From a phage, in the sequence record PZ445428.1: DNA of 64,000 bases. One strand, written 5' to 3'. A program made the position numbers and the translations under genes. The notes beneath the pieces were generated by a model. It saw only the letters and a program-made list of their open reading frames with translations, did no database searches and was not told the DNA's origin. Position 1 is the first letter of the stretch. Each line of letters opens with the position of its first letter. Below are positions 2,230-46,615 of this stretch, in pieces.

Positions 2230-4789
2230 CGAGAATCCTTTTCACGTTATCCAGATCTTTACATACAGCGATAAACTTATCATCCTTGTACTTGCTGTGG
2301 TCTGGATGCTCTTTATCCATAGCTGCTAACTTCTTGTATTCGAAGTCTGCGTCTAATAATACACCCTTAACATAACGAGTATATTCATCATCATCGATAC
2401 ACGCAATAGACGGGTGCTGTTTCTTCATCTTACCGCAGGAGTAGTCACGAGAACCCCCAGCTTCGGAGTCAGAATCAATACCGATTGGGCAATCAGGAAT
2501 ACTGATACCACGGTCTTTCTGAATGTTACGAATCAGAATCTGGTTATACTGCTCAATCAGATCTTCACGTACAATGGCAACCACGGAGTCGTGAACCAAC
2601 ATGACGATCTTCATCTCCTTTCCTAGACCCAGGGACAGGATTTCTTCATCAGCATCAATAGCACCTAATAGGAGACTGTCAGAAGATGCAGACTGAATGA
2701 TTGCGTTAAATCCAGAACGGATTTCTTCACCCTGAACACCACGATCTTCGGAGTGGATGTTGTGAAGACGACGTTTACGACCAAAGTGACTATAGATGAA
2801 TCCAAAGTTCTTGATCTGATCGTGGCACTTATCAATCCAACGCTTAAGCTGAGGGAACTGACCGAAGTAAGTTTCGATGTAATCTTTCGCATCTGCAACA
2901 GTACATTCAGTGAACGGTTCACCAGTTTTAGCTGCTTGCTCAAGCAATGCTTCGTTAACAGAATGAGCTACCTTAGCTGGGCCAGAACCATACAGAATAC
3001 CGAAGGTAATTGCCTTAGCTGCCTGACGCAGGGCTGGGAACAGTTTCTTAACATCACGTGGTTCACAGGATAACTTAAATACCATGTGGGCGATGTTAGA
3101 GTGGAAGTCAGGATACTTATCCGGCTCATTTTTCATGTTGATGAATACTTGTTGCATGTTTCTGTCACCAGACAGTACAGCAGCATAGTAAACTTCAGCA
3201 GTTGTTAAGTCCCATGCGATTACACGATATCCAGGTGGTGCAACTACACAACCCTTGATAATAGATTCATCACGAGGTAACTGTTGCAAGTTCAGTTTAC
3301 CAGAAGAACTCAGACGACCAGAAGTAGTCATGTGTTCGTGGAAACCTGTACGGATGCAACCATCGGCATCGATACTCAGAAGAATCTTCTCAACATAAGT
3401 AGAGATCAGCTTAGTCAGCTTACGAATCTCTAGCAGAGTCTTAGCAATCGGATGTTGAGTTGCTAATTCATTCAGAGCTTCTGCGTTCGTAGAATCTGCA
3501 CCAGTATCCGTCAACTTACCAGTTGGAGCCAAACCAACATAATCGAACAGAAGAACACGGAGCTGCTTAACAGAGTTCGGGTTAAACGCTTCATTCTGAT
3601 CCTGTTCTAGTTGCTTAACTTCTGGATAAGTATACAGATGCTCACGAGCCTTATTCAGACGATGAGTCAATTGATACTGAGCTTCTTTCAGACGATCTAC
3701 GGAAATAGGTACACCACGATCTTCAACACGTTGCAGGAATACACAACCGGGCATCAGAACTTCGTAATACAGATCACGCAGTTTCTCGTTCTTCTCAATC
3801 TTCGGTAAGAAGAAATTGTGCAGACGCAGAGTCGCATCGGTATCCTTCGCAGCATATGGCCACATAATATCAAATGGAATCAGATCATAGCTGAAATCCT
3901 CTTTCTTGATCTTATGCGCTTTGCAATAATCGTCCTTGAACTTATCGAGTTCAAAGTCGTAGTCACCCATGTCAGTATACTTCATAGCCAAAGATTTCAG
4001 GCCGTGAGTACCACGACGTTCATCGAGAACATAGTGCTGTAACATGGTATCATGAAGTCTACGCTCTTTACTTGCTTTCTCGAAGGAAAGTCCTAGATGG
4101 TAGGAGTAAAAGTGCATATCGAACTTCAAGTTATGGAAAACAATGTCATGCTTCTCACTGTCCAGGATCTTCTGGAGATAATGGACTGTCACTTCCGTAA
4201 GCACATCGGCATCAATATAAACACCCTGATACTCTTGGTGAGAAATGGAAACACCAAGCAGATAACCATCACGGCAATACAGAGCCGAGGTTTCGGAGTC
4301 AAATGCGATCGGGCCGATAACCATGGTATACACCATCTTGATGTATTCTTCGGCTTCATCAGGATCTGTAATCGGGCGATAATCACCAGCTTTAGCAATT
4401 TTCTCCCGACCATTAATAATGTCATGAATGCTTTCAACAGTTGCTTCAAAGACTGGTTTCATTTCAGGTTTAAAGTGTAACTGGGCTGGACTAATACTTG
4501 CAATCCAGTTCGCATAGCCATTATGCTCTACACGTTTACCGGTATAATCACCAATACCTTTCTTGCCTGCAAAATACAGGAAAGGTTCAGCACCAACTAG
4601 TACAACAAAATCGTAATCATTCGGATCGAATGGATTCTCTGGAGTTCCAATGGTAATATGCTTTTTCAGCAAACGCCCAGATAACTTCTCGTTACACATA
4701 TGGAATACATCAACTTCCTCACCGTAAAGCTGGAAGTGTTTATCATAACGAGTATTATTTAGAGCTTTATCAACTACTGCAATTTTCAA
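2222..4789 (-). CDS. DNA polymerase, family A, with 3'-5' exonuclease domain
   Basis: 855 aa; exo motif FDSETSALY; Pol I-like motif B RQAAKAITFGILYGSG; motif C LVHDS. Confidence 0.95.
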   Translation of the reverse strand: MKIAVVDKALNNTRYDKHFQLYGEEVDVFHMCNEKLSGRLLKKHITIGTPENPFDPNDYDFVVLVGAEPFLYFAGKKGIGDYTGKRVEHNGYANWIASISPAQLHFKPEMKPVFEATVESIHDIINGREKIAKAGDYRPITDPDEAEEYIKMVYTMVIGPIAFDSETSALYCRDGYLLGVSISHQEYQGVYIDADVLTEVTVHYLQKILDSEKHDIVFHNLKFDMHFYSYHLGLSFEKASKERRLHDTMLQHYVLDERRGTHGLKSLAMKYTDMGDYDFELDKFKDDYCKAHKIKKEDFSYDLIPFDIMWPYAAKDTDATLRLHNFFLPKIEKNEKLRDLYYEVLMPGCVFLQRVEDRGVPISVDRLKEAQYQLTHRLNKAREHLYTYPEVKQLEQDQNEAFNPNSVKQLRVLLFDYVGLAPTGKLTDTGADSTNAEALNELATQHPIAKTLLEIRKLTKLISTYVEKILLSIDADGCIRTGFHEHMTTSGRLSSSGKLNLQQLPRDESIIKGCVVAPPGYRVIAWDLTTAEVYYAAVLSGDRNMQQVFINMKNEPDKYPDFHSNIAHMVFKLSCEPRDVKKLFPALRQAAKAITFGILYGSGPAKVAHSVNEALLEQAAKTGEPFTECTVADAKDYIETYFGQFPQLKRWIDKCHDQIKNFGFIYSHFGRKRRLHNIHSEDRGVQGEEIRSGFNAIIQSASSDSLLLGAIDADEEILSLGLGKEMKIVMLVHDSVVAIVREDLIEQYNQILIRNIQKDRGISIPDCPIGIDSDSEAGGSRDYSCGKMKKQHPSIACIDDDEYTRYVKGVLLDADFEYKKLAAMDKEHPDHSKYKDDKFIAVCKDLDNVKRILGA

Positions 4790-30102: not shown

Positions 30103-30618
30103 ATGGCTAAGCAGAAAAACGCAAAAACTCAGGCAGCTCCAGCAGTTAAGACTTTCCCGCAGACCGAAGCTAATCGTAAGGCTCGTCTGGAACGTCATCT
30201 GCGTAAGCATCCTGAAGATGTTCAGGCTGCACAAGCTCTGGGTCGTCCGGCTCCTGTTCGTCAGAAACCGAAGGCTAAAAACTCAACCCGAGCTGTAGCT
30301 AAACAGGTTGTGTTCATCAAAGGTGAAGGCCACAAGTCTGTACCTGTAACCCTGGGCTTCAACGGTGGAGCTGAAATGTTCTCCCGTAAGGACATGTCCC
30401 CGAAAGAGTACGAAAAAGCAGTTAATCAGAAACGTAAGCCAATGGCCGACGTATTCCGTGAAACTCGCGGCCAGTTCGGCTCTGTTAAACCGAATATCTT
30501 CGGTGTAGAGTATAGCCGTGACAACGTTCGCGCTCTGTGCTACGGCATTGGCATCAAGTTCACTGGTGCTTCTGATCGTAAATCCGCTAAACCGGCTCGT
30601 AAGCGTAAAGCGAAGTAA
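30103..30618 (+). CDS. hypothetical highly basic protein
   Basis: 171 aa, Lys/Arg-rich, possibly nucleic-acid binding. Confidence 0.55.
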   Translation: MAKQKNAKTQAAPAVKTFPQTEANRKARLERHLRKHPEDVQAAQALGRPAPVRQKPKAKNSTRAVAKQVVFIKGEGHKSVPVTLGFNGGAEMFSRKDMSPKEYEKAVNQKRKPMADVFRETRGQFGSVKPNIFGVEYSRDNVRALCYGIGIKFTGASDRKSAKPARKRKAK

Positions 30619-30676
30619 TGATTGATGGGGCGAAAGCCCCATATACTAACTCTCTTTCTAACTAAGGATATTTTTT

Positions 30677-30892
30677 ATGTTCTCTAAGAAACCACGTTCC
30701 GTTACTGAAATCGTTGCTTCCTTTACCACAATTACTGACGAACTTCAAGCTCGTATTGATGCTGATCAGAAAACCGCTGCTGAAATTCAGAAACAGCAGG
30801 AAGAACTTGCTCTGAAATTGGCTGAAACCAATAAGAGCGAAAAATCTGCTCAAACTATTAAGGAAAACATCCTTAAACTGCTGGGTAAGTAA
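30677..30892 (+). CDS. hypothetical protein
   Basis: 71-aa ORF, helical. Confidence 0.45.
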   Translation: MFSKKPRSVTEIVASFTTITDELQARIDADQKTAAEIQKQQEELALKLAETNKSEKSAQTIKENILKLLGK

Positions 30893-30893
30893 T

Positions 30894-31154
30894 ATGAGAC
30901 ATAATAACTCACGTATTATGTCTGGTATGCTTCAACGACTATTTAACGATGGAGCGGTGAGGGCTTATCGGACAGACATTACCAATATTTGGAAACTAGA
31001 GTTTAGGTTATCAGATGATTCCGAAGCCATAAACAACCGTACCTTTACTTGGTATGAATTTGAAGATGAAGTTCAGCAGTTTAGCGAGGGTTACTTTGTA
31101 ACACCTGGAGAAGCTCAGGCTGCCCTAGAGCACTACTGTAGGACTTATCTCTGA
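30894..31154 (+). CDS. hypothetical protein
   Basis: 86-aa ORF. Confidence 0.45.
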   Translation: MRHNNSRIMSGMLQRLFNDGAVRAYRTDITNIWKLEFRLSDDSEAINNRTFTWYEFEDEVQQFSEGYFVTPGEAQAALEHYCRTYL

Positions 31155-31193
31155 TATACTAGGGGGCGAAAGCCCCTCTCATTTGGAGAAACT

Positions 31194-31409
31194 ATGCGTA
31201 ACTTCGTTGCAAAGAATGATTTTAACCGTGCTAGCACTCATAAGTCTGCTAGAGATTATACTCGTCTTTCTAAACATGAGCTTCTAGAAGAAATCATGGA
31301 AGAAAACTGGGATGTTAATGAAAATGGAACAGACCTGTTTGAAGAAGAAGAAATTCCCTTGAAAGACCCCAAGCAGTGGGAGTCTAACAAAGAGACCACT
31401 CTTTGTTAG
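31194..31409 (+). CDS. hypothetical acidic protein
   Basis: 71-aa ORF. Confidence 0.45.
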   Translation: MRNFVAKNDFNRASTHKSARDYTRLSKHELLEEIMEENWDVNENGTDLFEEEEIPLKDPKQWESNKETTLC

Positions 31410-31433
31410 TTTTCTACACAATAAGGATAAGTT

Positions 31434-32135
31434 ATGAAAGTAAAACCATTTGGTATGCTGGACATTGAATCCCTAGGGACTCCAGATAACTGTGGAACAA
31501 CCCATATCGCAATGCCGTCTTTCGCTTTCGTAGCCATGCACGGAATTGATACAGACCCTGACCTGATCTTCGTAACCCTAGACGTTCAAGATCAACTTAA
31601 TGCAGGTGCTAAAGTTACTGCATCTACATTTGCTTTCTGGATGGATCAGGCTAAAAATAGCCCATCTGCCCTCCACATTATGGAAGCTTTACAAAGCAAA
31701 GGTGCAAAACTCATTGCATTCCGTGATGGTAAACACCAGTGCACTAATGAACTAGGTTCAAACTATGGAGCTTACCTCATGGCTAAGAACATGATGGAAA
31801 TCTTCCTAGACGAAAATGCACTGTACTACGGCAATGGCCCAGAATTTGATATGACTATCTACTCTGCTAATACGTTCCATGCTGGAACTAATGAAGCAGT
31901 CGTTCCATGGAAATTCTGGAATCTGGGTAACGTTCGTTCTTTCCGTAATCTGTGGATGCAAGCAGGTTATAATTACAAAGAACTGGAAGCCGAAGGTGCT
32001 AGCTGGGCTAAGGCTAAAATGGAGAAGATGGACACCATTCGTTATGGAATCTATCCAGTTAAGCATGATCCAGCATTCGATGCATTAGTTGAAAGTTACT
32101 GCGTTGCGCGCATGATCGAAAAAATCAAAATTTGA
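31434..32135 (+). CDS. putative DEDDh-type 3'-5' exonuclease
   Basis: N-terminal MLDIESLG (DxE) and C-terminal YPVKHDPAFDALVESY (H-x4-D). Confidence 0.5.
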   Translation: MKVKPFGMLDIESLGTPDNCGTTHIAMPSFAFVAMHGIDTDPDLIFVTLDVQDQLNAGAKVTASTFAFWMDQAKNSPSALHIMEALQSKGAKLIAFRDGKHQCTNELGSNYGAYLMAKNMMEIFLDENALYYGNGPEFDMTIYSANTFHAGTNEAVVPWKFWNLGNVRSFRNLWMQAGYNYKELEAEGASWAKAKMEKMDTIRYGIYPVKHDPAFDALVESYCVARMIEKIKI

Positions 32136-32136
32136 T

Positions 32137-32165
32137 TTGCTTTCAGCTCCAAAATTCTGTATAAT
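32137..32165 (+). promoter_or_regulatory. N25-like early promoter
   Basis: TTGCTTTCAGctccaaaattctgTATAAT then ATTCATAAATTTGAGA. Confidence 0.65.
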
Positions 32166-32205
32166 ATATTCATAAATTTGAGAAAACAAACAAAAGGAAA
32201 ACACA

Positions 32206-32388
32206 ATGCCAGTATCTAAAAACACTCGTAAAAATGGTAAGAAAGCTACTCGTAACCTGGGCCTGCGTCGTATGGCTGAACGTCAGTCCGGCATCCAGAA
32301 AATCTTTAACGTGCTGAATCGCGCTAATCCAAACATTGATAACAGTTCTGATACTGTTCTGCGCACTCTGCTGGCAATCGGTCTGTAA
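32206..32388 (+). CDS. hypothetical small basic protein
   Basis: 60-aa ORF downstream of promoter and SD. Confidence 0.4.
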   Translation: MPVSKNTRKNGKKATRNLGLRRMAERQSGIQKIFNVLNRANPNIDNSSDTVLRTLLAIGL

Positions 32389-32441
32389 TAGACCGCTTTT
32401 AAAACAAATTCAAATCTCAAACTTCATATAAGGAAGAAATA

Positions 32442-33080
32442 ATGACTACTCGTATGTCTAAAACTCGTGCTCTGGCAACCATCAAGTCTCTGGAAGCTAA
32501 AATCCGTAAAGCCACTGAACAACAGCTTCTGGTTGCAGTTGGTGAAGGTAAAGACCACAACCAAGTTGTTGTTGGTGCTGCAATCGAAGTAGATGCTCTG
32601 TCTACTCGTATTGCGAATGACTTCCAGTCTCTGCTGGATATGATGTCTCAGCGCGATCGCATCAAAGCTGCCCTGATTCAGAGCAACGCAGAAACGATTG
32701 TTGAAATCGGTTCTCGCAAAATGACCGTAGCGGAAGCTATCGAAGCCAAGCGTTCTATGGAACTCAAGGCACAGCTGTTGGCTAACATGCGTAAGCAGTT
32801 CCATGCTGCAACTGTTAAGTTCAACACTCAGAAAGCTCAATTTGATGCTAAGTACGAACGTCTTCAGGATAATATGTCCACCCGTGACAAGAAGACTTCC
32901 GAAGATGAAATCAAAATGCAGATCAACCTGCTGGAACTGAAGCACACTCCGTTCCTGATCGATCCTCTGGGTCTGGAAGCGTTGATCAAGCAGCATGACG
33001 AAGACTATCAGGACTTTGCAACTAACGTTGACTTTGTTCTGTCTGAGTCCAACGCCTCTACTTTCATCGAAGTAGAGTAA
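32442..33080 (+). CDS. hypothetical protein
   Basis: 212 aa; the opposite-strand ORF 32424-32996 is judged a shadow. Confidence 0.55.
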   Translation: MTTRMSKTRALATIKSLEAKIRKATEQQLLVAVGEGKDHNQVVVGAAIEVDALSTRIANDFQSLLDMMSQRDRIKAALIQSNAETIVEIGSRKMTVAEAIEAKRSMELKAQLLANMRKQFHAATVKFNTQKAQFDAKYERLQDNMSTRDKKTSEDEIKMQINLLELKHTPFLIDPLGLEALIKQHDEDYQDFATNVDFVLSESNASTFIEVE

Positions 33081-33463
33081 TGAATTAAAAGTCTAGCAAA
33101 TCGGTAGACGAAAGCCCAAGCATCTTACCTCGCAGCAGCGGTTGAAATACGAGGTTAAATAAGACCGCTGACCATACTATAAAGTATAATCTATTGGAGA
33201 TTATGTTTATTACATCAGACTCTTAATCTGACACGTAAAAACAAAGGTCGTTGGTAGTACCAACACAACTTCAAAGATCAACGCTCAAGTATGAAAGCTG
33301 AAAAGTTAAAAGCACTCAAACTTCTAACCTTCTAAAGCTAAAAGATGCAAAGTATTCGTTGATGATTCAAACCCTAGGTCAAAGGTACATGGCTCATAAG
33401 ATATGGCCTGTGGCGCCTCTAGGCTGTTTATCGGTTTGCTAGTCTCTCAATCTAAAAATGTAT

Positions 33464-33492
33464 TTGCGAAAACACTTTCACTTCTGTATAAT
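33464..33492 (+). promoter_or_regulatory. sigma70 early promoter
   Basis: TTGCGAaaacactttcacttctgTATAAT. Confidence 0.55.
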
Positions 33493-33522
33493 ATATTTTT
33501 AAATTGATGAGACGAGGCTATT

Positions 33523-33840
33523 ATGACTTTCCATATTCTGATTGATGATGTTCGTAACTTAAATGGAATGGATATTATCATTCGAACCCCCGAAGCCGCT
33601 GTTGAGTTTCTGAATACAACCGATACCACTGGTCATTTCGTTTATATGGACAACGATCTGGCTGTAGATGGTATGGAAGGTTATCAAATTCTTCGTTTAC
33701 TCTTAGAATTTGGCCAGAGACCCAAGAAAGTGGTACTAGTAACCTCTAACCCGGTAGCTAAAGAGACCATGCGTAATGATCTCCTAGACGAAGGGTATCA
33801 AGAAAGCCCTAATCGTATTGAGTACGATTGGCCGGAGTAA
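33523..33840 (+). CDS. hypothetical protein with receiver-domain-like acidic pocket
   Basis: ILIDDVR...VYMDNDL...VVLVTSNP arrangement is CheY-like; 105 aa. Confidence 0.45.
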   Translation: MTFHILIDDVRNLNGMDIIIRTPEAAVEFLNTTDTTGHFVYMDNDLAVDGMEGYQILRLLLEFGQRPKKVVLVTSNPVAKETMRNDLLDEGYQESPNRIEYDWPE

Positions 33841-33847
33841 ACAAAAG

Positions 33848-34297
33848 ATGAAGGCAGCACTGCTACTAACTGCTGCCCTAGCCTTTAGCTTTAATAGTCA
33901 TGCCACACATGATGCAAAAGAAATAGAATGTATTGCTAAAAACATCTATTTTGAGAGCCGAGGTGAGGGCACGAAGGGAATGCTCGCAGTTGCACAGGTT
34001 ACTAAAAACCGTGTTAACTCTGGTAAGTTCCCTGATACTTACTGTAAAGTAGTATATCAGTCTAACCAGTTTTCTTGGGTATCCAAGAACCCAAAAGTTG
34101 ATAAAACCGATGAGGCTTGGCAAGTTGCTAAGAATTTAGCTAGAGTGATATACTACGTTGATTTACCACAAGATCCAACACATGGAGCGTTATACTTCCA
34201 TAGTGGTAAAGACAAACCTTATTGGACTAAAGTATTTAAGAAAACAACTAAGATCAAAGGACACACGTTCTATAAACCTGTCTCCCAAGAAACTTAA
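33848..34297 (+). CDS. secreted cell-wall hydrolase (SleB/Hydrolase_2-like)
   Basis: Signal peptide MKAALLLTAALAFSFNSHA; NIYFESRGEGTKGMLAVAQVTKNR motif. Confidence 0.6.
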   Translation: MKAALLLTAALAFSFNSHATHDAKEIECIAKNIYFESRGEGTKGMLAVAQVTKNRVNSGKFPDTYCKVVYQSNQFSWVSKNPKVDKTDEAWQVAKNLARVIYYVDLPQDPTHGALYFHSGKDKPYWTKVFKKTTKIKGHTFYKPVSQET

Positions 34298-34305
34298 AAA
34301 TTCGG

Positions 34306-34334
34306 TTGCTTAATGCTTTAAAAACCTGTATAAT
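34306..34334 (+). promoter_or_regulatory. sigma70 early promoter
   Basis: TTGCTTaatgctttaaaaacctgTATAAT. Confidence 0.6.
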
Positions 34335-34365
34335 ACTTTCATAAATTAATGAGAGGAAGCGAAAC

Positions 34366-34536
34366 ATGAAATCAGTTGTAATTATTGGTGTTAATACTCG
34401 TGGTATTCGTACTACTAAAACTGTTAAAACTGCTAAGATTTCTGATGTTACATCAAACCCTAGCAAGTTTGATTTCGCTAAAGTCTCGGCAGTTATGACT
34501 GAAAAATCTTTTAATCAAACACTGGAAGCAAAATAA
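34366..34536 (+). CDS. hypothetical small protein (56 aa, not in ORF track)
   Basis: ATG after GAGAGGAAG; reads MKSVVIIGVNTRGIRTTK...; stop overlaps next ATG. Confidence 0.4.
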   Translation: MKSVVIIGVNTRGIRTTKTVKTAKISDVTSNPSKFDFAKVSAVMTEKSFNQTLEAK

Positions 34537-34979
34537 TGGAAGAGAATATCCTAGACGTTCTGCGTAGAGCTTTACAAGCATCTAAAGTAAATGGTTCTGA
34601 TAAAGAAGTAGTGAAGAGCTACCAGACTATAATTGGCGATCTTCAGCGGGTAGATAAAGACTTTATCACTTCTGAACAATTTGTAAATTATCTGAAAGCT
34701 CAGTTAAAGAGCATTGAAGCAACTAAAGCAAAACTGCAGGGTGCTGATCTGCAAAACTATAGTCTGCAATCTGCTCAGTATGAATATGTACTTAACAGTT
34801 ATTTAGAGAAGTATCTGCCTCCGCAGATGTCCTCTACTGAAATACGCAATTACTTTGCAGAATTAGTTAAACTGAATCCAGGTATTACCAAAGGTACCCT
34901 GATGAAAGCGATTAAGGAAGAATTTTCTGGTCGTTATGATGGTAAACTTGCAGCTCAAGTTGCTGGCGAATTTAATTAA
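34536..34979 (+). CDS. GatB/YqeY-domain protein
   Basis: C-terminal YLEKYLPPQMSSTEIRNYFAELV...GTLMKAIKEEFSGRYDGKLAAQVAGE resembles the YqeY family. Confidence 0.55.
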   Translation: MEENILDVLRRALQASKVNGSDKEVVKSYQTIIGDLQRVDKDFITSEQFVNYLKAQLKSIEATKAKLQGADLQNYSLQSAQYEYVLNSYLEKYLPPQMSSTEIRNYFAELVKLNPGITKGTLMKAIKEEFSGRYDGKLAAQVAGEFN

Positions 34980-34987
34980 AAATTGAT

Positions 34988-35016
34988 TTGCTAAATGCTT
35001 CAAAAGTTGATATAAT
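34988..35016 (+). promoter_or_regulatory. sigma70 early promoter driving the ORF-free structured region
   Basis: TTGCTAaatgcttcaaaagttgaTATAAT. Confidence 0.6.
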
Positions 35017-35021
35017 AGTTA

Positions 35022-36144
35022 CATAAATTAGAGAGAACAGCGAGCCGATTACGCTGAGTGCAGAATCCCAACCGGAGCGCATTGAATAGAGTCGGTGAGT
35101 TGTACTAGGATTCCTGATTAGAGAGGTTCCAGGCACCGCAGGGTTTACTCTGTACCGCTTCCAGCTATCGATATCAGGAATGAATAGTGCGCAAAACTCG
35201 GGAGCTGTCCCGAAACCTCGTAAACTCTTCTCTCTAATTTAATTAAACGATGGATCTCAGCACGAGCCAGTCACAGTGTGAAACATGGTGCGTGACCCAG
35301 GGGTAGAAGACTAGGAGTTGGCTTGAGAAACCCATGTAACTCCTAACGCTGACCCGTCTAGGTTGCAAATCGAGACATGTGTATATCACAATGAGGTAAG
35401 TGACCATCAAATAGTGGGTAGCGTAATTTTTAGGTGAATGATGGAGGTCTAACGACTGAGGGCATCATCTCGGGATTACCAGCCACGAAATAGTGGGGTG
35501 TCGAACTGACTTATGTAATAACACTGCCGTCCTAGTATAAACGGTAATATCAAGCCGTAACTGGTGGAAGATGTAGGTTCGAATCCTACGGTCGGTAAGA
35601 ATTAGATAACTCGGGCTTATACCGGATAAGCATTCGCTGCGGAAGTACATACTATGACGGTTCAGGAGGTACGCCGCCTGATCAGTATGAGGTTAGAATC
35701 GAAACCGCTAAACCACGAGGAAACCTGACGGCCTCAGCCAAACTCGGAAACTCAGGATCGCTGCTTAGTGCGTGCCCTGTTTTAACCTAGAGACTAAGCA
35801 CTCCAGCTTCGCATCGAAAATCGGAGGTGCGATTCTACTAGACCGCGTAACTATGAGAGGGGGAAATGCTCACATGAAACATGTGACTAATGGTGCACAA
35901 TAGAACAGGTAAACGCGATAAGTCCTGTTGAGTAGCAGCAGAAGGCTGGGAGTCATGACCTGAGCCTAACCGAGTTCTCCACATAGGGAGGACATAACCA
36001 CGAAGTCACCTTGACTTAAACTGGAAGATATTGTCTGACGGCAGGGCTGAAGAGCTTAATCTGAGGGGGCTGACCCTACCTACCGCCGGGTATCTTTAAG
36101 AGCTTTTGAGAGAGTTCTTAAAAATACCTAACAAAATCTATTTT
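35022..36144 (+). ncRNA. candidate structured stable RNA(s) or tRNA-like elements, about 1.1 kb ORF-free
   Basis: No ORF on either strand apart from one spurious minus ORF; higher GC; many hairpins (TAGGAGTT...AACTCCTA; AGAGAGAA...TTCTCTCT about 200 nt apart); T-arm-like GTAGGTTCGAATCCTAC at 35573-35589. Confidence 0.4.
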
Positions 36145-36219
36145 CGGGGTGTAGTCTAAGGGATAGGCAGGAGTCTTCTAAATTCCTTTATGCAGGTTCG
36201 AATCCTGTCACCTCGGCCA
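36145..36219 (+). tRNA. tRNA-Arg (anticodon TCT)
   Basis: Hand-folded cloverleaf: acceptor CGGGGTG/CACCTCG, anticodon loop CTTCTAA, T-arm GCAGG-TTCGAAT-CCTGT, encoded CCA. Confidence 0.8.
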
Positions 36220-36245
36220 ATTTTATTAACTAGTAGGAAAATAAA

Positions 36246-36446
36246 ATGAAAACACGATATATAGTAAAAGCAGTAGGTGAACATTCTCAAGTAAATACCA
36301 CTGATGTTACAGCACTAGCGTTTGAAGTAGTCTCCGGTATAGTTATATTTCATAATGGAGATATTAAAGCACCTGAATTTGCTGTGGATTCTGGCCTGTT
36401 TATTTCTGCCACTAAAGTAACTGTAGTATCTAACTCTTCTAAATAA
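36246..36446 (+). CDS. hypothetical protein
   Basis: 66-aa ORF. Confidence 0.4.
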   Translation: MKTRYIVKAVGEHSQVNTTDVTALAFEVVSGIVIFHNGDIKAPEFAVDSGLFISATKVTVVSNSSK

Positions 36447-36457
36447 TAAGGAAATAT

Positions 36458-37402
36458 ATGTTTACTAAAAACACTAAAGAACTAACTTCTGAACAAAAAG
36501 TAATTCGTACTATTAAACGTTGGGGTGTTGGTGCTGTAGTTGGTCTTGGTGCTCTTATTCTGGCTCTCAATTCCTATACAGTTGTTCAGGACGGTACTGT
36601 AAAGACTCAGACATTCTTGGGTAAAGTTAACCCGAACCCTGTACTGCCAGGGTTTCACATTGTCAACCCATTCGCTTCTTTTGATACTTTTAGTACGAAA
36701 GATATTTCCATGAAACTGGATAAGCTTCAGGTTCCTAGCCAGGATAAGTTTAAGTCCACTGTTGATATTACTGTTATGTTGCAGTTCGATGGTGCTAAAG
36801 CTCCGATGAACCGTGTTAACGCAGGTACTCAGGATCAGGCGCTGAACAAGTATGTTGAAGAGAAGATGCTGTCTACTATCCGTGAATTTGGTAAGTCTGT
36901 ACCGAAAGCACAGGATCTGTTCGACGCTAAGATTCAGGCACAGCTGCAAACTGCAATTCAGCAGGAAGTTGAAGAATATGCTCGTCCTTATGGTTACACC
37001 GTGAAGCAAGTATTCCTTCAGGATATTACACTTCCGCCAGTAATCATGGAACAGGTTCAGAACACAAAAGTTCGTGAAGAACAAGTTAACGCCGCTAAAG
37101 CTGAACTAGCTCGTGTTGAACAAGAAGCACAGCAGAAAGTTAAGCAAGCTGAAGCAGATCGTTCTGCTCGTGAAAACATGGCAGTAGCTAACGAACGTGA
37201 CGCAGATGCTAAACTGTACGCAGCTAAGAAAGAAGCTGAAGCTAACGCCGCACTGCAACGTACCATTACCCCTGAAATGATTCGTTGGAAACAGCTGGAA
37301 GTTGAAATGCTTCGTGCTGAGAAATATCAGGGTGGTGTACCGCAGACTGTAGTTGGTACTGGTTATGATGGCCAGATGATCATGGATATGCGTAACAAGT
37401 AA
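36458..37402 (+). CDS. SPFH/band-7 (stomatin/prohibitin-like) membrane protein
   Basis: N-terminal TM segment, SPFH-like core, long C-terminal coiled coil (EQEAQQKVKQAEADR). Confidence 0.6.
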   Translation: MFTKNTKELTSEQKVIRTIKRWGVGAVVGLGALILALNSYTVVQDGTVKTQTFLGKVNPNPVLPGFHIVNPFASFDTFSTKDISMKLDKLQVPSQDKFKSTVDITVMLQFDGAKAPMNRVNAGTQDQALNKYVEEKMLSTIREFGKSVPKAQDLFDAKIQAQLQTAIQQEVEEYARPYGYTVKQVFLQDITLPPVIMEQVQNTKVREEQVNAAKAELARVEQEAQQKVKQAEADRSARENMAVANERDADAKLYAAKKEAEANAALQRTITPEMIRWKQLEVEMLRAEKYQGGVPQTVVGTGYDGQMIMDMRNK

Positions 37403-40249: not shown

Positions 40250-41314
40250 ATGATTAAGACTGGTCTAGTAATTGGTAAATTCGCACCATTAACTCGTGGT
40301 CATATCAACCTTATTAATACTGCGGCGACAATGTGTGAGCGCGTTATCGTTGTAGTTAGCCACGACAATCGTTGGCTGGATAAGCAAAACTCTAGGGATC
40401 AAGAAGTCCTACAGTTGAAGAATCGTTTACGATGGCTTGAGCAGACTTATGCAGATATTGAGCATGTGGAAATCCACGATCTTATCGAAGATGATATTCC
40501 TGAGTACCCTAATGGATGGGAAGCATATACCAAGATACTCCAGGAGTGTTATGGTATGTATCCTGAAATCACTATCTTTTCTAGTGAAATTGGGTATGAT
40601 GCGGAGTACAAAAAGTATCTGCCAAACTTCGGCCATTATATTGTAGACTCGGAACGCACTCGTGTACCAATCTCTGCTACTATGATTCGTGAGAATCTGA
40701 TGAAGTATTGGGAGTTCCTGCCTAGCATAGTTCGTAAAGACTATGTTCGCAAGGTAGTTGTTATCGGTACTGAAAGCTCTGGCAAGACAACTTTAACAAA
40801 GTATCTTGCGAAGTTATATAATACTTCATGGGTTGAAGAGTATGGTCGTACATACTGTGAAGTTGACTTAGTAGGCAACGAAAGCCTACTGACTAGCGAC
40901 GACTACACGAAGATTGCATTTAGGCACAAAGAGCTAGAGTTTGAAGCAGAATGTACTGCAAATAAGATCATGTTTGTGGATACCAATGCTTTCATTACTG
41001 AGTTCTACCATAGACTCTACGAACATCGTAAGAATCCTGTGGTTACGGCTATTGCGAAAGAAGAACATTACGATTTAGTTATTGTTCTAGCACCTACTGT
41101 GAAGTGGGTAGATGATGGTTTACGTATTAACTCAGATCGTTCTATTACTTCAGAACTATTCGAGCAGATGAAGGAGGAGTTCCCTAACCAATTCCCAGAG
41201 GGACGCACTGTTTATATCGACTCACCGGACTACAAAGTTCGTATGGACGAAGCTGTAAATGCTGTAGACTGGTTAATTCATTATGTTGACGCGGGAGCTA
41301 TCCAATATGACTAA
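40250..41314 (+). CDS. nadR: bifunctional NMN adenylyltransferase / ribosylnicotinamide kinase (NadR-like, no HTH)
   Basis: GKFAPLTRGHINLI, NRLRWL, YPNGWEAY, ISATMIRENLMKYWEFLP and kinase P-loop VVVIGTESSGKTTL align along E. coli NadR. Confidence 0.85.
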   Translation: MIKTGLVIGKFAPLTRGHINLINTAATMCERVIVVVSHDNRWLDKQNSRDQEVLQLKNRLRWLEQTYADIEHVEIHDLIEDDIPEYPNGWEAYTKILQECYGMYPEITIFSSEIGYDAEYKKYLPNFGHYIVDSERTRVPISATMIRENLMKYWEFLPSIVRKDYVRKVVVIGTESSGKTTLTKYLAKLYNTSWVEEYGRTYCEVDLVGNESLLTSDDYTKIAFRHKELEFEAECTANKIMFVDTNAFITEFYHRLYEHRKNPVVTAIAKEEHYDLVIVLAPTVKWVDDGLRINSDRSITSELFEQMKEEFPNQFPEGRTVYIDSPDYKVRMDEAVNAVDWLIHYVDAGAIQYD

Positions 41315-41984
41315 TTATCTTGTAAATGACTTTAAAAACTGGAAACCTCTGGAATATCTGTGGCTGTTCATTGCAGTGGCCTTCATTAGTTTGGCTAACT
41401 ATAATGGTACAGCACTAGATTGGGCAACAGCAATCACCAACGTTGTTTGTGTTATTCTGGTTGCAAAGGGGCGTGTTTCTAACTATGTCTGGGGTTTGGT
41501 AGGTGTTCTGACCTACGGAATTACAGCTCTAAATGCTGATCTTTATGGTAACGCAGCGCTAAACCTGTTGTACTACGTCCCTATGCAGTTCTACGGAATG
41601 TACTTGTGGCATAAAAATAAGCCAAGTAATCTGCCGGATGTTCCAACTAAAGTTCTGACAAAAGCTCAAGCTTTGCTGACTCTAGGGATTTTAGCAGTAG
41701 CAACATTAGGTTATGGTAGTTTCCTTGCTACTACGGCTGATCCATTCCCAATGTTAGACGCATTTACCGCGGTTGGCAGTGTGATTGCTATGTGGCTTAT
41801 GGTTAAGCAGTATGCTGAACAGTGGCTGATCTGGATTGCCATTAACTTTGGTACTGTGTACATCTGGCTTGTAACTGCCCAATCTACGGGTGCATCTTAC
41901 GCAATCCTGGCAATGTGGCTGGTATTCTTAGGTAACTCTATTATGGGAGCCTATAAAGGCTACTTTGTAAGAGTTAACAAGTAA
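41307..41984 (+). CDS. pnuC: nicotinamide riboside transporter PnuC
   Basis: Multi-TM protein; DAFTAVGSVIAMWLMVKQYAEQWLIWIAINFGTVYIWL matches the PnuC conserved core. Confidence 0.8.
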   Translation: MTNYLVNDFKNWKPLEYLWLFIAVAFISLANYNGTALDWATAITNVVCVILVAKGRVSNYVWGLVGVLTYGITALNADLYGNAALNLLYYVPMQFYGMYLWHKNKPSNLPDVPTKVLTKAQALLTLGILAVATLGYGSFLATTADPFPMLDAFTAVGSVIAMWLMVKQYAEQWLIWIAINFGTVYIWLVTAQSTGASYAILAMWLVFLGNSIMGAYKGYFVRVNK

Positions 41985-43068: not shown

Positions 43069-43267
43069 TCCAGAAGTAGTTACACAGCGTTTGCTGATTA
43101 AAGGTGTAGTAGCTGAAGCAGGTCTTACCGAAGCTGTTGCAGATTTTCAGGCACAGTTCACAGCTATTCTCACCCAAGCTAAAGAAACTGGTGCGGAGGA
43201 GTATGCTGCTGCAACTCTAGCGCTCACGTTAGCTGGACTTGATCTGGCAGAAGAAGCCGGAGTTTAA
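43061..43267 (+). CDS. hypothetical protein
   Basis: 68-aa ORF. Confidence 0.4.
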   Translation: MANPEVVTQRLLIKGVVAEAGLTEAVADFQAQFTAILTQAKETGAEEYAAATLALTLAGLDLAEEAGV

Positions 43268-43297
43268 CTCCTCCAAGCAGAAATTTTAAAAATGTAC

Positions 43298-43327
43298 TTG
43301 CTTTTTACTTAAGATTTCTGCTATAAT
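43298..43327 (+). promoter_or_regulatory. sigma70 early promoter
   Basis: TTGCTT-18 nt-TATAAT. Confidence 0.55.
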
Positions 43328-43356
43328 AGTTATATAAATTGATGAGAGGAATCAGA

Positions 43357-43632
43357 ATGTCAAAACGTGTTACAGCAACTGGTATTGAAAGCTCAGTATG
43401 TAAATCCTGGGGTGGTTGGGAAGGTGAGATTGAATGGCTTTATTTCTACAATGTAGAACTTCTGCCTGAAATTAAAGCCCACTGTATCGAAGCTGGTATG
43501 TCTCCTGATGCTAAAGCAGATATCGAAATTACTATGACTAAACTAGAAGGTCGTGTAATTACTGTTAGTGATGAAGGTGAAGAGGTCTTCGAACTTCCAT
43601 TCACCTTGAAAGTCACTCCTTCGTTTGATTAA
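43357..43632 (+). CDS. hypothetical protein
   Basis: Start moved to ATG after GAGAGGAATCAGA. Confidence 0.5.
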   Translation: MSKRVTATGIESSVCKSWGGWEGEIEWLYFYNVELLPEIKAHCIEAGMSPDAKADIEITMTKLEGRVITVSDEGEEVFELPFTLKVTPSFD

Positions 43633-45248: not shown

Positions 45249-45324
45249 ACATCCATAGCTCAATGGTTAGAGCTACCGCCTCTTAAGCGGAGGGTTCTAG
45301 GTTCAAGTCCTAGTGGGTGTACCA
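45249..45324 (+). tRNA. tRNA-Lys (CTT)
   Basis: Acceptor ACATCCA/TGGGTGT, D-arm GCTC...GAGC, loop CTCTTAA, T-arm CTAGG-TTCAAGT-CCTAG, CCA. Confidence 0.65.
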
Positions 45325-46537: not shown

Positions 46538-46615
46538 GGGTTGCTAGCTCAACTGGTTTAGAGCACTGGTCTTTTAAACCATAGGTTACAGGTTCGAGTC
46601 CTGTGCAACCCACCA
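46538..46615 (+). tRNA. tRNA-Lys (TTT)
   Basis: Acceptor GGGTTGC/GCAACCC, loop CTTTTAA, T-arm ACAGG-TTCGAGT-CCTGT, CCA. Confidence 0.75.

What the first reader, a model, noticed from the sequence alone, without database searches (positions are those of the whole stretch)
33081..33463. 380-bp ORF-free region with hairpins between coding genes
There is no ORF on either strand and several hairpins occur (for example TCAGACTCTTAATCTGA). The region lies downstream of a gene with no clear terminator and upstream of a promoter, so it could be a small RNA, a 3' UTR structure or a recombination hotspot.
Basis: seen in the sequence. Interest (0 to 1): 0.35.

Follow-up and report, generated by a model that had tools for sequence, protein, structure and literature searches.

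The report
Overlooked structured RNA in T5 phages
The "empty" 380-bp gap is an unannotated gene for a ~356-nt, multiply pseudoknotted RNA that always sits right behind one protein gene of unknown function, in phage T5 relatives, in many other large phages and in Bacillota chromosomes.

Summary
Window 33081-33463 (Escherichia phage TrudiGerster, T5-like) has no credible ORF and folds better than shuffles. It is not a loose set of hairpins. It is one + strand RNA, about 33090-33445.

Its parts are a 21-bp closing helix, an H-type pseudoknot, two further long-range pairings between the 5' junction and the 3' domain, variable hairpins and a stretch of 7-nt repeats.

Among 28 distinct T5-like phages it is more conserved (97%) than the flanking genes (83-94%). 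Divergent versions follow every examined homologue of the upstream gene (phrog_1491, mis-named "tail fiber"). These occur in three Demerecviridae subfamilies, Vequintavirinae, Pseudomonas, Bacillus and Erwinia phages, about 80 metagenome contigs and about 80 bacterial genomes. Covariation is massive.

No Rfam family matches the T5 RNA. One distant relative scores below threshold to RAGATH-27, which turns out to be the 5' fragment of this larger RNA.

Function is unknown. My best guess is a stable RNA made from the 3' end of the upstream mRNA that works with that gene's protein, in a tRNA or RNA-repair setting.

The parts
32442..33080 (+). Partner gene: 212-aa helical protein, T5.085 / phrog_1491 family (annotated 'tail fiber' or 'hypothetical'); the RNA starts 9 nt after its stop
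   Evidence: ORF. PHROG 1e-80, no Pfam, NCBIfam, PDB or PADLOC family. AF2 pLDDT 86.6, helical. The RNA follows it in all homologous loci examined.
33090..33445 (+). The structured RNA as delimited by its closing helix P1 (true 5'/3' ends not mapped)
   Evidence: Single nhmmer match in the window, 33090-33453. 97.0% mean pairwise identity among 28 T5-like phages. Covariation.
33090..33110 (+). P1 5' strand AGTCTAGCAAATCGGTAGACG, ending in the conserved C-G and G.U pairs
   Evidence: Pairs with 33425-33445. P1 is 97% paired with 12 of 14 pairs changed on both sides in 22 diverse sequences. Cognate strands give 14.2 bp against 4.5 bp for non-cognate.
33111..33127 (+). Junction J (AAAGCCCAAGCATCTTA) holding X1 (GCCCA, 33114-33118) and X2 (ATCTTA, 33122-33127), which pair with the 3' domain
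   Evidence: X2 helix is 76.5% paired and all 6 pairs covary; X1 is 74% paired. T5 ATCTTA/TAAGAT against Seunavirus ATCTTG/CAAGAT.
33127..33170 (+). H-type pseudoknot: P2 ACCTCG (33127-33132) / CGAGGT (33150-33155), and PK1 CAGCGGT (33136-33142) / ACCGCTG (33164-33170)
   Evidence: P2 covaries. PK1 has different complementary sequences in more than 15 lineages. At least 6 Watson-Crick bp in 76% of loci against 21% of shuffles.
33174..33202 (+). Hairpins P3 (ATACT-ATAA-AGTAT) and P4 (AATCT-ATTGG-AGATT)
   Evidence: Invariant in T5-like phages. P4 is kept with other sequences in Pectobacterium and Seunavirus phages (read by eye).
33215..33231 (+).
   Evidence: Stem variants TCAGA/TCTGA, CAGC/GCTG and GGCAGAT/ATCTGTC. 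The loop equals that of the phage's own tRNA-Lys(CUU) at 45249-45324.
33250..33264 (+). P6 hairpin GTTGGTA-G-TACCAAC
   Evidence: An equivalent hairpin, often with a GCGA loop, is present in other lineages (read by eye).
33269..33363 (+). A-rich heptad-repeat region (units like CTTCAAAG, GCTGAAAAG, GCTAAAAG), possibly closed by ATCAACG (33277-33283) / CGTTGAT (33357-33363)
   Evidence: Family-wide 7-nt periodicity: identity at lags 7, 14 and 21 is 0.40, 0.38 and 0.35 against about 0.24-0.25 off-phase. This is the part nhmmer recognises across phyla. TRF finds nothing in this one copy. The closing helix comes only.
33368..33424 (+). 3' domain: CAAAC anchor; H3 CCTAG (33373-33377) / CTAGG (33419-33423); hairpin 33391-33408 whose loop TAAGAT (33397-33402) pairs with X2; TGGC (33411-33414) pairs with X1; then C before P1
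   Evidence: H3 is 96% paired with 3 of 5 pairs changed on both sides. H3 pairs 5/5 in nearly all loci where P1 was located independently. Inner helices come from alifold.
33425..33445 (+). P1 3' strand TGTTTATCGGTTTGCTAGTCT
33464..33492 (+). Promoter of the next gene (not part of the RNA); 33437-33518 resembles other T5 early promoters
   Evidence: 10/12 consensus match. Annotated as a promoter in T5. Paralogous matches elsewhere in T5-like genomes.

Best explanation
The region encodes a functional + strand structured RNA of about 356 nt. SHOWN: the fold and its conservation, and the strict adjacency of the RNA to the phrog_1491 gene on the same strand. The fold comprises closing helix P1, an H-type pseudoknot, two junction-to-3'-domain pairings that cross helix H3, variable hairpins and a heptad-repeat stretch. 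INFERRED: the RNA is transcribed as the 3' part of the early transcript that carries the 60-aa and 212-aa genes. It is then either released or kept as a stable, end-protected RNA, because P1 locks the 5' and 3' ends together. In relatives the 3' end is set by an intrinsic terminator or by RNase P cutting at an abutting tRNA. INFERRED: it acts together with the upstream gene's protein, as a ribonucleoprotein or as the protein's substrate or regulator. The heptad repeats (N-U-U-C/U-A-A-A-G) would serve as a multi-copy binding platform, and the pseudoknotted core as a rigid scaffold. SPECULATIVE: the module serves phage or host tRNA and RNA-damage biology. Lineage-specific inserts mimic tRNA parts: a tRNA-Lys anticodon arm in T5-likes and a YrlA-like tRNA-like domain in an Erwinia jumbo phage.
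For: Conservation above that of coding flanks: RNA 97.0% (5' core 99.6%) against 83-94% for neighbouring CDSs in 28 distinct T5-like phages, and about 440 phage records at 92-97%.

Structure: alifold gives 33 pairs, 15 of them compensatory, on 10 sequences. On 22 diverse sequences 90.1% of cells pair, against 57% for shuffled and 35-44% for slid controls. The covariation score is 0.816 against 0.207, reached by 0 of 500 shuffles. P1 cognate strands give 14.2 bp against 4.5 bp non-cognate, the junction pair is G.U in 47 of 50, and 20% of P1 pairs are G.U or U.G, which fixes the strand. PK1 is enriched over shuffles.

Linkage to the gene: a gap of about 370-550 nt without an annotated CDS follows the gene in Pectobacterium, Vibrio, Pseudomonas, Bacillus and Erwinia phages. 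A strict structural signature is found in 88 of 142 loci downstream, against 1 of 142 on the reverse complement and 0 of 124 upstream. nhmmer hits lie on the + strand just after the gene in 46 phage or metagenome loci and in 65 of 80 bacterial loci. All failing loci that I read by eye also carry the RNA. The median gap from stop codon to P1 is 12 nt, which leaves no room for a separate promoter. In Bacillota chromosomes, gene plus RNA is the only conserved unit.

Ends: a T-run lies within 70 nt after P1 in 49 of 96 loci, and a same-strand tRNA within 150 nt in 14 of 96. In Seunavirus-type phages tRNA-Thr starts 4-5 nt after P1.

Heptads: 7-nt periodicity in the repeat region only.

tRNA and RNA-repair setting: 29 tRNA genes in the window. 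The neighbours are cREC_REC, an Rv2179c-like exoribonuclease and YqeY. An RNA ligase is the next gene in L104. There is a YrlA-like insert and a tRNA-Lys-like loop.

Precedent: RAGATH-18, another RNA lying just downstream of a gene, proved to be that protein's partner RNA (PMC11061315).
Against: I could find or examine no expression, end-mapping or binding data; literature searches found nothing on this locus. The protein is not basic (pI 5.9; family median 6.4) and has no recognisable RNA-binding or catalytic domain. Adjacency alone does not prove a physical complex, and a cis role for the upstream mRNA would give the same linkage. In TrudiGerster and T5 no terminator or tRNA follows P1, so the 3' end there is undefined. 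The tRNA-mimic features are lineage-specific, not family-wide. One clade (L084-like) lacks an obvious PK1 and pairs a different part of J with the 3' domain. P1 segments in the A5 alignment were chosen by requiring pairing, so the percentage paired for P1 is partly circular. Its covariation, and the H3, X1 and X2 results, are not.
Confidence: 0.5

Rival explanations
1. Cis-acting 3' UTR. The structure stays on the mRNA of the upstream gene and controls its stability or translation, for example as a barrier to 3' exonucleases or as an autoregulatory site for the protein. It is not a trans-acting RNA.
For: It starts a median of 12 nt after the stop codon and is always on the same strand as the gene. 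In T5-likes no terminator lies between gene and RNA. The strict linkage to one gene family is what a cis element would show.
Against: A fold of about 250-410 nt with three long-range or pseudoknot pairings and near-invariant junction nucleotides is far more than mRNA protection needs. In several lineages a stem-loop sits between the stop codon and P1. The RNA is more conserved than the gene it would regulate.
Confidence: 0.15
2. tRNA-mimic decoy or sponge. The RNA acts alone on a host factor that is conserved from E. coli to Bacillota. The target could be a tRNA-targeting nuclease, a tRNA modification or processing enzyme, or a general RNA-binding protein titrated by the heptads. The upstream gene would be only a co-expressed neighbour.
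For: The P5 loop C-N-Y-U-U-A-A equals a tRNA-Lys anticodon loop. There is a YrlA-like tRNA-like insert in Erwinia phage RAY. The RNA lies inside or next to tRNA gene clusters in many loci. The heptad sequence is conserved across phyla. Other large phage RNAs, GOLLD and ROOL, also sit near tRNAs (PMC5737381).
Against: The mimic elements are not family-wide. The only universally linked feature is the upstream gene. The model gives no account of the module standing alone in bacterial chromosomes.
Confidence: 0.15
3. Ribozyme. The pseudoknotted core with its invariant G.U, GAA, AAAC, AAAUC and CUG nucleotides is a catalytic centre, for self-processing out of the transcript or for acting on tRNA precursors.
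For: The core is complex and has highly conserved unpaired nucleotides at a multi-helix junction. It abuts tRNAs in some phages. It was originally grouped (as RAGATH-27) among RNAs found near ribozyme-associated genes (the meaning of the name is taken from PMC11061315). There is a loose likeness to RNase P RNA motifs (GAAAGCC; GGCU.UUAUCGG), noted by eye only.
Against: No Rfam ribozyme or RNase P model matches, even at E = 10. Association with one protein family and with 3' terminators is atypical for self-cleaving ribozymes, as argued for similar motifs in PMC5737381. No cleavage site can be proposed.
Confidence: 0.08
4. DNA-level element: a replication origin or iteron array, a protein-binding palindrome, a nick site or a recombination hotspot.
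For: A-rich short repeats and inverted repeats are present. A homing endonuclease gene is inserted next to the element in phage bastian.
Against: In P1, 120 of 600 pairs are G.U or U.G, which would be A.C mismatches on the other strand. The orientation relative to the upstream gene is fixed. A 7-nt period does not match the DNA helical repeat. The annotated T5 nick is at 39746, not here. The pseudoknot pairings have no meaning in duplex DNA.
Confidence: 0.02

Closest known systems
RAGATH-27 RNA (Rfam RF03100), a candidate sRNA of unknown function
   Same: In a distant relative (Acholeplasmataceae MAG, L226) the Rfam model aligns end to end (positions 1-86) with the start of this RNA. The aligned part is the P1 5' strand, the CGAAAA...AAAC junction and the H-type pseudoknot, directly after a phrog_1491 gene. 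The junction motif and the order of elements are the same as in T5.
   Different: The Rfam model covers only 86 nt. It marks 46 of them as unpaired and annotates one hairpin. Here those 'unpaired' bases are P1, X1 and X2, whose partners lie about 250 nt downstream. The model does not detect the T5 RNA (no hit at E <= 10) nor any of 57 other loci scanned. Even L226 scores below its gathering score (61.4 against 76.1). I could not read the original description.
Protein-associated, highly conserved RNA motifs with 3' terminators (skipping-rope, drum, DUF3800-I; Weinberg et al. 2017, PMC5737381)
   Same: These also have complex conserved folds, are not in 5' UTRs, are followed by terminators, are tied to one nearby protein family and have unknown function. 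A skipping-rope RNA lies right after this RNA in Paenibacillus L153.
   Different: The sequences and structures differ (no Rfam hit). The association here is strictly same-strand and immediately 3' of the gene. Those motifs occur on either side and in either orientation.
RAGATH-18 / IS607 TnpB reRNA (PMC11061315)
   Same: A conserved structured RNA immediately downstream of, and co-occurring with, one protein gene, later shown to be that protein's partner RNA.
   Different: TnpB is a RuvC nuclease of about 400 aa. The partner here is a 212-aa helical protein with no nuclease domain. No guide-like variable segment is evident.
Bacterial Y RNA YrlA (Rfam RF02553), partner of Ro60
   Same: A long stem is formed by the 5' and 3' ends, with an effector region between them. 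The Erwinia phage RAY version contains a YrlA-type tRNA-like module (44.5 bits, E = 5.6e-7). The RNA-repair gene neighbourhood is similar (PMC4201824, PMC7824862).
   Different: There is no YrlA hit in the T5-like RNA. No Ro60/TROVE gene is seen next to it. The pseudoknots and heptad repeats are absent from Y RNAs.
GOLLD and ROOL large phage or prophage RNAs
   Same: These are large, ornate RNAs found in phages and prophages and often next to tRNA genes, with unknown function (PMC5737381; PMC12286853 listed).
   Different: There is no Rfam match. This RNA is smaller (about 250-410 nt). Those RNAs are not tied to a specific upstream protein gene.
T5 stable RNAs (RNA I, III, IV, 1, 2, 2H, 3, X) annotated in NC_005859
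   Same: They belong to the same genome region and class, being non-tRNA stable RNAs of the T5 early tRNA region with unknown function.
   Different: All eight are annotated elsewhere (T5 30284-33949 and 40848-41566). The homologous T5 stretch, 43142-43504, carries no RNA annotation.

Membership tests
RAGATH-27 (RF03100) | Match to the Rfam covariance model at or above its gathering score (76.1 bits) | tested here: not met
   No hit in window 32000-37000 even at E <= 10. The only hit anywhere is L226, at 61.4 bits.
RAGATH-27 (RF03100) | Conserved 5' sequence ...CGAAAAC..AAAC.. followed by the hairpin of the model | tested here: inconclusive
   T5-likes have ACGAAAGCCCAAGC and an H-type pseudoknot in the same order. 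The homology is inferred through a chain of intermediates and the shared upstream gene, not by direct alignment.
tRNA / tmRNA | Cloverleaf or tmRNA detected by ARAGORN or Rfam | tested here: not met
   ARAGORN finds 29 tRNAs in the window, none in 33081-33463. Rfam finds none.
YrlA / Y RNA | Match to RF02553; tRNA-like module; Ro60 partner | tested here: not met
   No hit in the window. Only the Erwinia phage variant has a sub-threshold match. Presence of a Ro60 gene was not searched genome-wide.
RNase P RNA | Match to Rfam RNase P models; P4 pseudoknot with CR-I/CR-V sequences | tested here: not met
   No Rfam hit at E <= 10. The GAAAGCC and GGCU.UUAUCGG likeness is by eye only, and the topology differs.
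GOLLD / ROOL / other curated large RNAs | Match to the Rfam models | tested here: not met
   none.
Intrinsic terminator / simple 3' UTR hairpins | GC-rich hairpin followed by a U-run on the + strand after the upstream gene | tested here: not met
   There are no + strand terminator-like sites in 32000-35000; the only one inside the region is on the - strand.
Protein-coding gene (small ORF) | Conserved ORF with coding-type substitution pattern | tested here: not met
   The largest internal ORFs are 23-34 aa. The 7-nt periodicity and the paired covariation are incompatible with coding (calks 73, 84).
Type III toxin-antitoxin RNA | Tandem repeats of about 34-45 nt upstream of an endoribonuclease toxin gene | tested here: not met
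   The repeats are 7 nt and lie downstream of the gene. The protein has no PADLOC or Pfam match.

The most novel reading that the evidence does not exclude
A widespread, previously unrecognised ribonucleoprotein. Several copies of the phrog_1491 protein would assemble on the heptad repeats of a doubly pseudoknotted RNA encoded just behind the gene. Lineage-specific tRNA-like inserts would aim the particle at tRNA-centred conflicts, either decoying anticodon nucleases or recruiting repair and processing enzymes. The particle would be present in the model phage T5 and in thousands of phage and Bacillota lineages.
Probability: 0.3. Interest if true: 0.85.

Novelty: new variant of a known kind. 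Interest (0 to 1): 0.72.

Why it matters
T5 is a classical model phage, and TrudiGerster (locus tags bas27_) is a sequenced E. coli K-12 phage, so the prediction can be tested at once by Northern blot, deletion and pull-down.

The RNA is better conserved than its neighbouring genes. Its partner protein family comprises about 3,300 clusters at 50% identity. It spans Gram-negative and Gram-positive phages and bacterial chromosomes. Yet the protein is mislabelled 'tail fiber' and the RNA is unannotated.

The work also redefines the Rfam motif RAGATH-27 as the 5' third of a much larger RNA with long-range pseudoknots. Complex-folded RNAs tied to a single protein have repeatedly turned out to be new machines, as with TnpB and IscB guide RNAs and Y RNA with Ro60. 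A new one sitting in phage tRNA and RNA-repair regions bears on how phages cope with tRNA-targeting defences.

Tried and rejected
- **Rfam:** I ran it at permissive thresholds on the window and on 57 related loci. It found nothing on the RNA except the sub-threshold RAGATH-27 hit (L226) and the YrlA-like hit (L071).
- **Tandem Repeats Finder:** it found no array in the window copy, because the heptads are too degenerate.
- **Second matches in T5 genomes:** these turned out to be promoter paralogues of 33437-33518, not copies of the RNA.
- **T5 nick site:** rejected, because the annotated major interruption is at T5 39746.
- **Minus-strand sRNA:** I considered one ending at the terminator-like site 33265-33249. 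I rejected it on the G.U strand asymmetry and the fixed orientation relative to the gene.
- **Protein function:** Pfam, NCBIfam, PHROGs, PADLOC, PDB sequence and profile searches, and Foldseek against PDB and BFVD gave only unknowns. The best PDB match was 3kdq, a protein of unknown function.
- **Downstream genes:** they are not conserved. They include cREC, an RNA ligase, a DNA methylase, RING-finger proteins, HNH and others, so no third partner emerged.
- **Downstream tRNA isotype:** it varies, so there is no specific tRNA partner.
- **First automated signature:** it was mis-registered by one base and was discarded; the corrected version is.
- **Covariance model:** a full-length model was not attempted.
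- **Literature:** searches for T5 transcriptomes or any description of this RNA or protein found nothing. The 2015 RAGATH paper and the 2017 supplement were not available.
Full report
The window is 100% identical to Escherichia phage TrudiGerster (MZ501108; Epseptimavirus, T5-like) over the 801 bp queried. It contains 29 tRNA genes. The finding's coordinates are the gap between a 212-aa gene (32442-33080) and the promoter and start of the next gene (33464-33492; ATG 33523).

Only ORFs of 23, 27, 34 and 60 aa touch the gap, and the last two run out of it. The quoted hairpin is at 33215-33231. The 390 nt fold much better than shuffles, with z = -4.2 on the + strand and -5.1 on the - strand. A 26-nt inverted repeat joins the two ends of the region. 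The GenBank records of TrudiGerster and of T5 annotate nothing here except the downstream promoter. The eight 'stable RNAs' annotated in T5, and the annotated T5 nick, are all elsewhere.

**Conservation in T5-like phages.**
The non-coding stretch matches 456 phage records, 437 of them over at least 80% of its length, at 92-97% identity. I aligned 28 distinct T5-like sequences over 3 kb.

| Segment | Mean pairwise identity |
|---|---|
| Whole RNA region | 97.0% (88% invariant columns) |
| 5' core, 33098-33204 | 99.6% |
| Upstream gene | 93.6% |
| Other flanking genes | 82.8-93.5% |

The extra matches inside T5 genomes are paralogues of the early promoter at 33437-33518, not of the RNA. The window holds one copy of the RNA.

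**The RNA travels with the upstream gene.**
The upstream protein belongs to phrog_1491 and is called 'tail fiber protein' in many records. It has no Pfam, NCBIfam, PADLOC or PDB relative. tblastn finds it in 746 phage records from very different groups.

In every group I opened, the gene is followed on the same strand by a gap of about 370-550 nt without an annotated CDS. The groups were:
- Pectobacterium and Vibrio Demerecviridae
- Seunavirus and other ~145-kb Vequintavirinae
- Pseudomonas Otagovirus
- Bacillus Tsarbombavirus
- an Erwinia jumbo phage

One scan of metagenome contigs and one of bacterial genomes each gave 80 further loci. An HMM built only from T5-like, Seunavirus, Pectobacterium and Vibrio sequences hits the + strand just after the gene in 46 of the phage and metagenome loci and in 65 of 80 bacterial loci.

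I also applied a strict structural signature: an AAATC-like anchor, a 5/5-paired H3, then C-U/A-G/A, and a P1 of at least 10 of 12 pairs ending in G followed by A. It is met downstream in 88 of 142 loci. It is met in 1 of 142 reverse complements and in 0 of 124 upstream control stretches. The failing loci I read by eye carry the RNA with an imperfect P1 or a variant anchor.

In Bacillus, Brevibacillus and Paenibacillus chromosomes the neighbours are ordinary genes (TetR, Rok, a two-component system). There, gene plus RNA is the only conserved unit. The protein family has 3,277 clusters at 50% identity (E <= 0.001). The 150 best-scoring members listed are single-domain proteins of 202-238 aa.

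**The fold (TrudiGerster coordinates).**
- **P1:** 33090-33110 pairs with 33425-33445.
- **Junction J:** 33111-33127.
- **H-type pseudoknot:** P2 is 33127-33132 / 33150-33155 and PK1 is 33136-33142 / 33164-33170.
- **Hairpins:** P3 and P4 (33174-33202), P5 (33215-33231) and P6 (33250-33264).
- **Heptad-repeat region:** 33269-33363.
- **3' domain:** 33368-33424, closed by H3 (33373-33377 / 33419-33423).

Two segments of J pair into the 3' domain and so cross H3. X2 (ATCTTA, 33122-33127) pairs with the hairpin loop TAAGAT (33397-33402). X1 (GCCCA, 33114-33118) pairs with TGGC (33411-33414).

**Evidence for the fold.**
RNAalifold on ten sequences predicts 33 pairs, 15 of them with compensatory changes.

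I located P1 in 73 loci using only the junction motif. This gave at least 11 contiguous pairs in 56 loci, with 50 distinct sequences. Cognate strands pair over 14.2 bp on average, against 4.5 bp for non-cognate combinations. The first pair is G.U in 47 of 50. G.U or U.G pairs make up 120 of the 600 P1 pairs, and only 11 of the 600 are mismatches. On the other strand those 120 pairs would be A.C mismatches, so the selected molecule is the + strand RNA.

I then aligned 22 diverse 'mini' sequences (5' strand plus J, joined to the 3' domain plus 3' strand) and counted pairs for the named structure:

| Measure | Observed | Control |
|---|---|---|
| Cells paired | 90.1% | 57% shuffled; 35-44% slid |
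| Covariation score | 0.816 | 0.207 (0 of 500 shuffles reach it) |
| P1 paired | 97% | |
| H3 paired | 96% | |
| X2 paired | 76.5%, all six pairs changed on both sides | |
| X1 paired | 74% | |

One caveat applies. The P1 strands in that alignment were chosen by a rule that required pairing. H3, X1 and X2 were not.

T5 against Seunavirus gives a clean double change in X2: ATCTTA/TAAGAT becomes ATCTTG/CAAGAT.

PK1 has unrelated complementary sequences in more than 15 lineages. Examples are CAGCGGT/ACCGCTG, CGAGGC/GCCTCG, TTAGCCAC/GTGGCTAA, AAGCGGTG/CACCGCTT, GGAGAGC/GCTCTCC and TGATGTTC/GAACATCA. It reaches at least 6 Watson-Crick pairs in 76% of loci, against 21% of shuffles. One clade (L084-like) seems to have a plain long hairpin instead and uses a different part of J for the long-range pairing.

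**Heptad repeats.**
The 110 nt before the 3' domain show a 7-nt periodicity across 50 distinct family members. Mean identity at lags 7, 14 and 21 is 0.40, 0.38 and 0.35, against about 0.24-0.25 off-phase. The 5' domain shows none. The commonest units are TTCAAAG and TTTAAAG.

This is also the part whose sequence is recognisable from T5 to Bacillota. A 7-nt period excludes coding and does not fit the DNA helical repeat. The simplest reading is a set of equivalent binding sites on single-stranded or weakly paired RNA.

**Transcription and ends (inferred).**
In 96 confidently delimited examples, P1 starts a median of 12 nt after the stop codon, and within 30 nt in 71 of 96. The RNA is therefore almost certainly co-transcribed with the gene. 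Its length is 246-412 nt, with a median of 307. A T-run lies within 70 nt after P1 in 49 of 96, and a same-strand tRNA starts within 150 nt in 14 of 96.

In Seunavirus-type phages tRNA-Thr begins 4-5 nt after P1, so RNase P would create the 3' end. In TrudiGerster and T5 neither a terminator nor a tRNA follows. The next promoter starts about 20 nt later, so the 3' end there is unknown.

**Variable inserts that look like tRNA parts.**
In 26 of 28 T5-like variants and in the Pectobacterium phage it has a 7-nt loop C-N-Y-U-U-A-A. This is the anticodon loop of tRNA-Lys, and it is identical to the loop of the phage's own tRNA-Lys(CUU) and tRNA-Lys(UUU).

In Erwinia phage RAY the same region holds a YrlA-type tRNA-like module (RF02553, 44.5 bits, E = 5.6e-7, below the gathering score). 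These inserts are lineage-specific, so I treat them as hints about the setting, not as the core function.

The gene neighbourhood points the same way. In T5-likes the next gene is a cREC receiver domain, proposed to process cyclic-phosphate RNA ends (PF20274; PMC7824862). An Rv2179c-like 3'-5' exoribonuclease and a YqeY protein lie nearby. An RNA ligase follows the RNA in L104. But downstream genes differ widely between lineages, and the neighbouring tRNA isotypes vary.

**Comparison with what is known.**
No Rfam 15 family matches the T5 RNA at E <= 10, nor the RNA in 57 other loci, with two exceptions.

The first is the YrlA-like insert described above. The second is RAGATH-27 (RF03100). It aligns over its whole 86-nt model with the start of the RNA in L226, directly after the phrog_1491 gene, at 61.4 bits against a gathering score of 76.1.

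The model's 46 'unpaired' 5' positions correspond to P1, X1 and X2. In L226 their partners lie about 250 nt downstream: AATTTACTGCTTTCTG with TGGAAAGTAGTAAATT, ATCTTT with AAAGAT, and TACAATT with AATTGTA. The model's single hairpin is one stem of the H-type pseudoknot. RAGATH-27 is therefore a fragment of this larger RNA in one subclade, and the T5 RNA is not a detectable member of the curated family.

By kind, the RNA resembles the protein-associated, terminator-followed, complex-fold motifs of unknown function described by Weinberg et al. 2017 (skipping-rope, drum, DUF3800-I). It also resembles RAGATH-18, which was later shown to be the partner RNA of the TnpB gene just upstream of it. A likeness to RNase P RNA (GAAAGCC; GGCU.UUAUCGG) is by eye only, and neither Rfam nor the topology supports it.

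**The protein.**
AlphaFold2 (31-sequence alignment, pLDDT 86.6) gives a bundle of long helices with a small sheet. The sheet is formed by the N-terminus, a hairpin at residues 86-95 and the C-terminus. The invariant residues (T8-R9, R71, K75, S81-N82, T85, E98-K103, D174-P175, D197, S201-N204) mostly lie in or next to those elements in the sequence.

Foldseek finds only a protein of unknown function in the PDB (3kdq, E = 0.026) and uncharacterised phage proteins in BFVD. The pI is 5.9, with a family median of 6.4, so nothing marks it as an RNA binder.

**Most likely mechanism, and rivals.**
Shown: a + strand RNA fold under strong purifying selection, and its obligate position just 3' of one gene family. 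Inferred: co-transcription with the gene, protection of the ends by P1, and a functional partnership with the protein. In that partnership the heptads would be repeated binding sites and the pseudoknotted core a scaffold. The inferred setting is tRNA and RNA-damage biology.

I give the whole statement about 0.5. That the region is a functional structured RNA I put at over 0.9, and the ribonucleoprotein idea specifically at about 0.3-0.4.

The rivals are:
- a cis-acting 3' UTR element (0.15)
- a protein-independent tRNA-mimic decoy or sponge (0.15)
- a ribozyme (0.08)
- a DNA-level element (0.02)

No expression or binding data exist in anything I could search, so the function remains open.

Noticed in passing
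window 35525-35598: ARAGORN calls a tRNA-Ser with anticodon ACT and Rfam gives a tRNA match of 36.2 bits. The GenBank record annotates no tRNA here. The site lies in the stretch equivalent to T5 'RNAX', a 719-nt stable RNA of unknown function next to tRNA-Arg.
   Followed up: no
L004 (Salmonella phage bastian) 1872-2384; also L137 2509-3036: A homing (HNH) endonuclease gene is inserted directly after the RNA's P1 3' strand in bastian, replacing the usual promoter stretch. An HNH gene also follows the RNA in a metagenome contig. This is consistent with homing enzymes targeting very conserved sequence.
   Followed up: partly
L071 (Erwinia phage vB_EamM_RAY) 2253-2316: The RNA's variable region contains a YrlA-like tRNA-like module (T arm, capped acceptor stem, D arm). 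It scores 44.5 bits to RF02553, E = 5.6e-7, below the gathering score.
   Followed up: partly
L226 1934-2018: Rfam RAGATH-27 (RF03100) matches the 5' 85 nt of the RNA in an Acholeplasmataceae MAG. The curated motif appears to be only the 5' fragment of a ~330-nt RNA whose pairing partners lie downstream.
   Followed up: yes
L153 (Paenibacillus xylaniclasticus) 2519-2647: A skipping-rope RNA (RF02924, 54.1 bits, above its gathering score) lies immediately downstream of the RNA. Two orphan structured RNAs sit in tandem.
   Followed up: no
window 33215-33231 compared with 45249-45324 and 46538-46615: The P5 loop (CTCTTAA here; CTTTTAA, CATTTAA or CACTTAA in relatives) has the sequence of a tRNA-Lys anticodon loop. 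It is identical to the loops of the phage's own tRNA-Lys(CUU) and tRNA-Lys(UUU).
   Followed up: partly
window 31434-32135, 32442-33080, 33523-33840: Annotation problems. The 'putative metallopeptidase' matches Pfam Rv2179c-like 3'-5' exoribonuclease. The phrog_1491 'tail fiber protein' is an early-region helical protein with no tail-fiber evidence. The 'hypothetical' 105-aa gene is a cREC receiver domain, PF20274.
   Followed up: partly
L061-L063, L007 (about 145-kb Klebsiella/Seunavirus-type phages), e.g. L062 ~4210-4330: Between the tRNA genes there are tRNA-like sequences with long inserts, and ARAGORN reports 'tRNA-???' calls with 2- or 4-base anticodons.
   Followed up: no
L086 2494-3492, L115 1566-2537: In one metagenomic clade, RING-finger (C3HC4) proteins of about 325 aa are encoded right after the RNA. 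This is unusual for phage or bacterial contigs.
   Followed up: no
window 33437-33518: The promoter region of the next gene has paralogues (75-85% over 50-80 nt) at several other early promoters in T5-like genomes. This explains the extra BLAST 'places'.
   Followed up: yes
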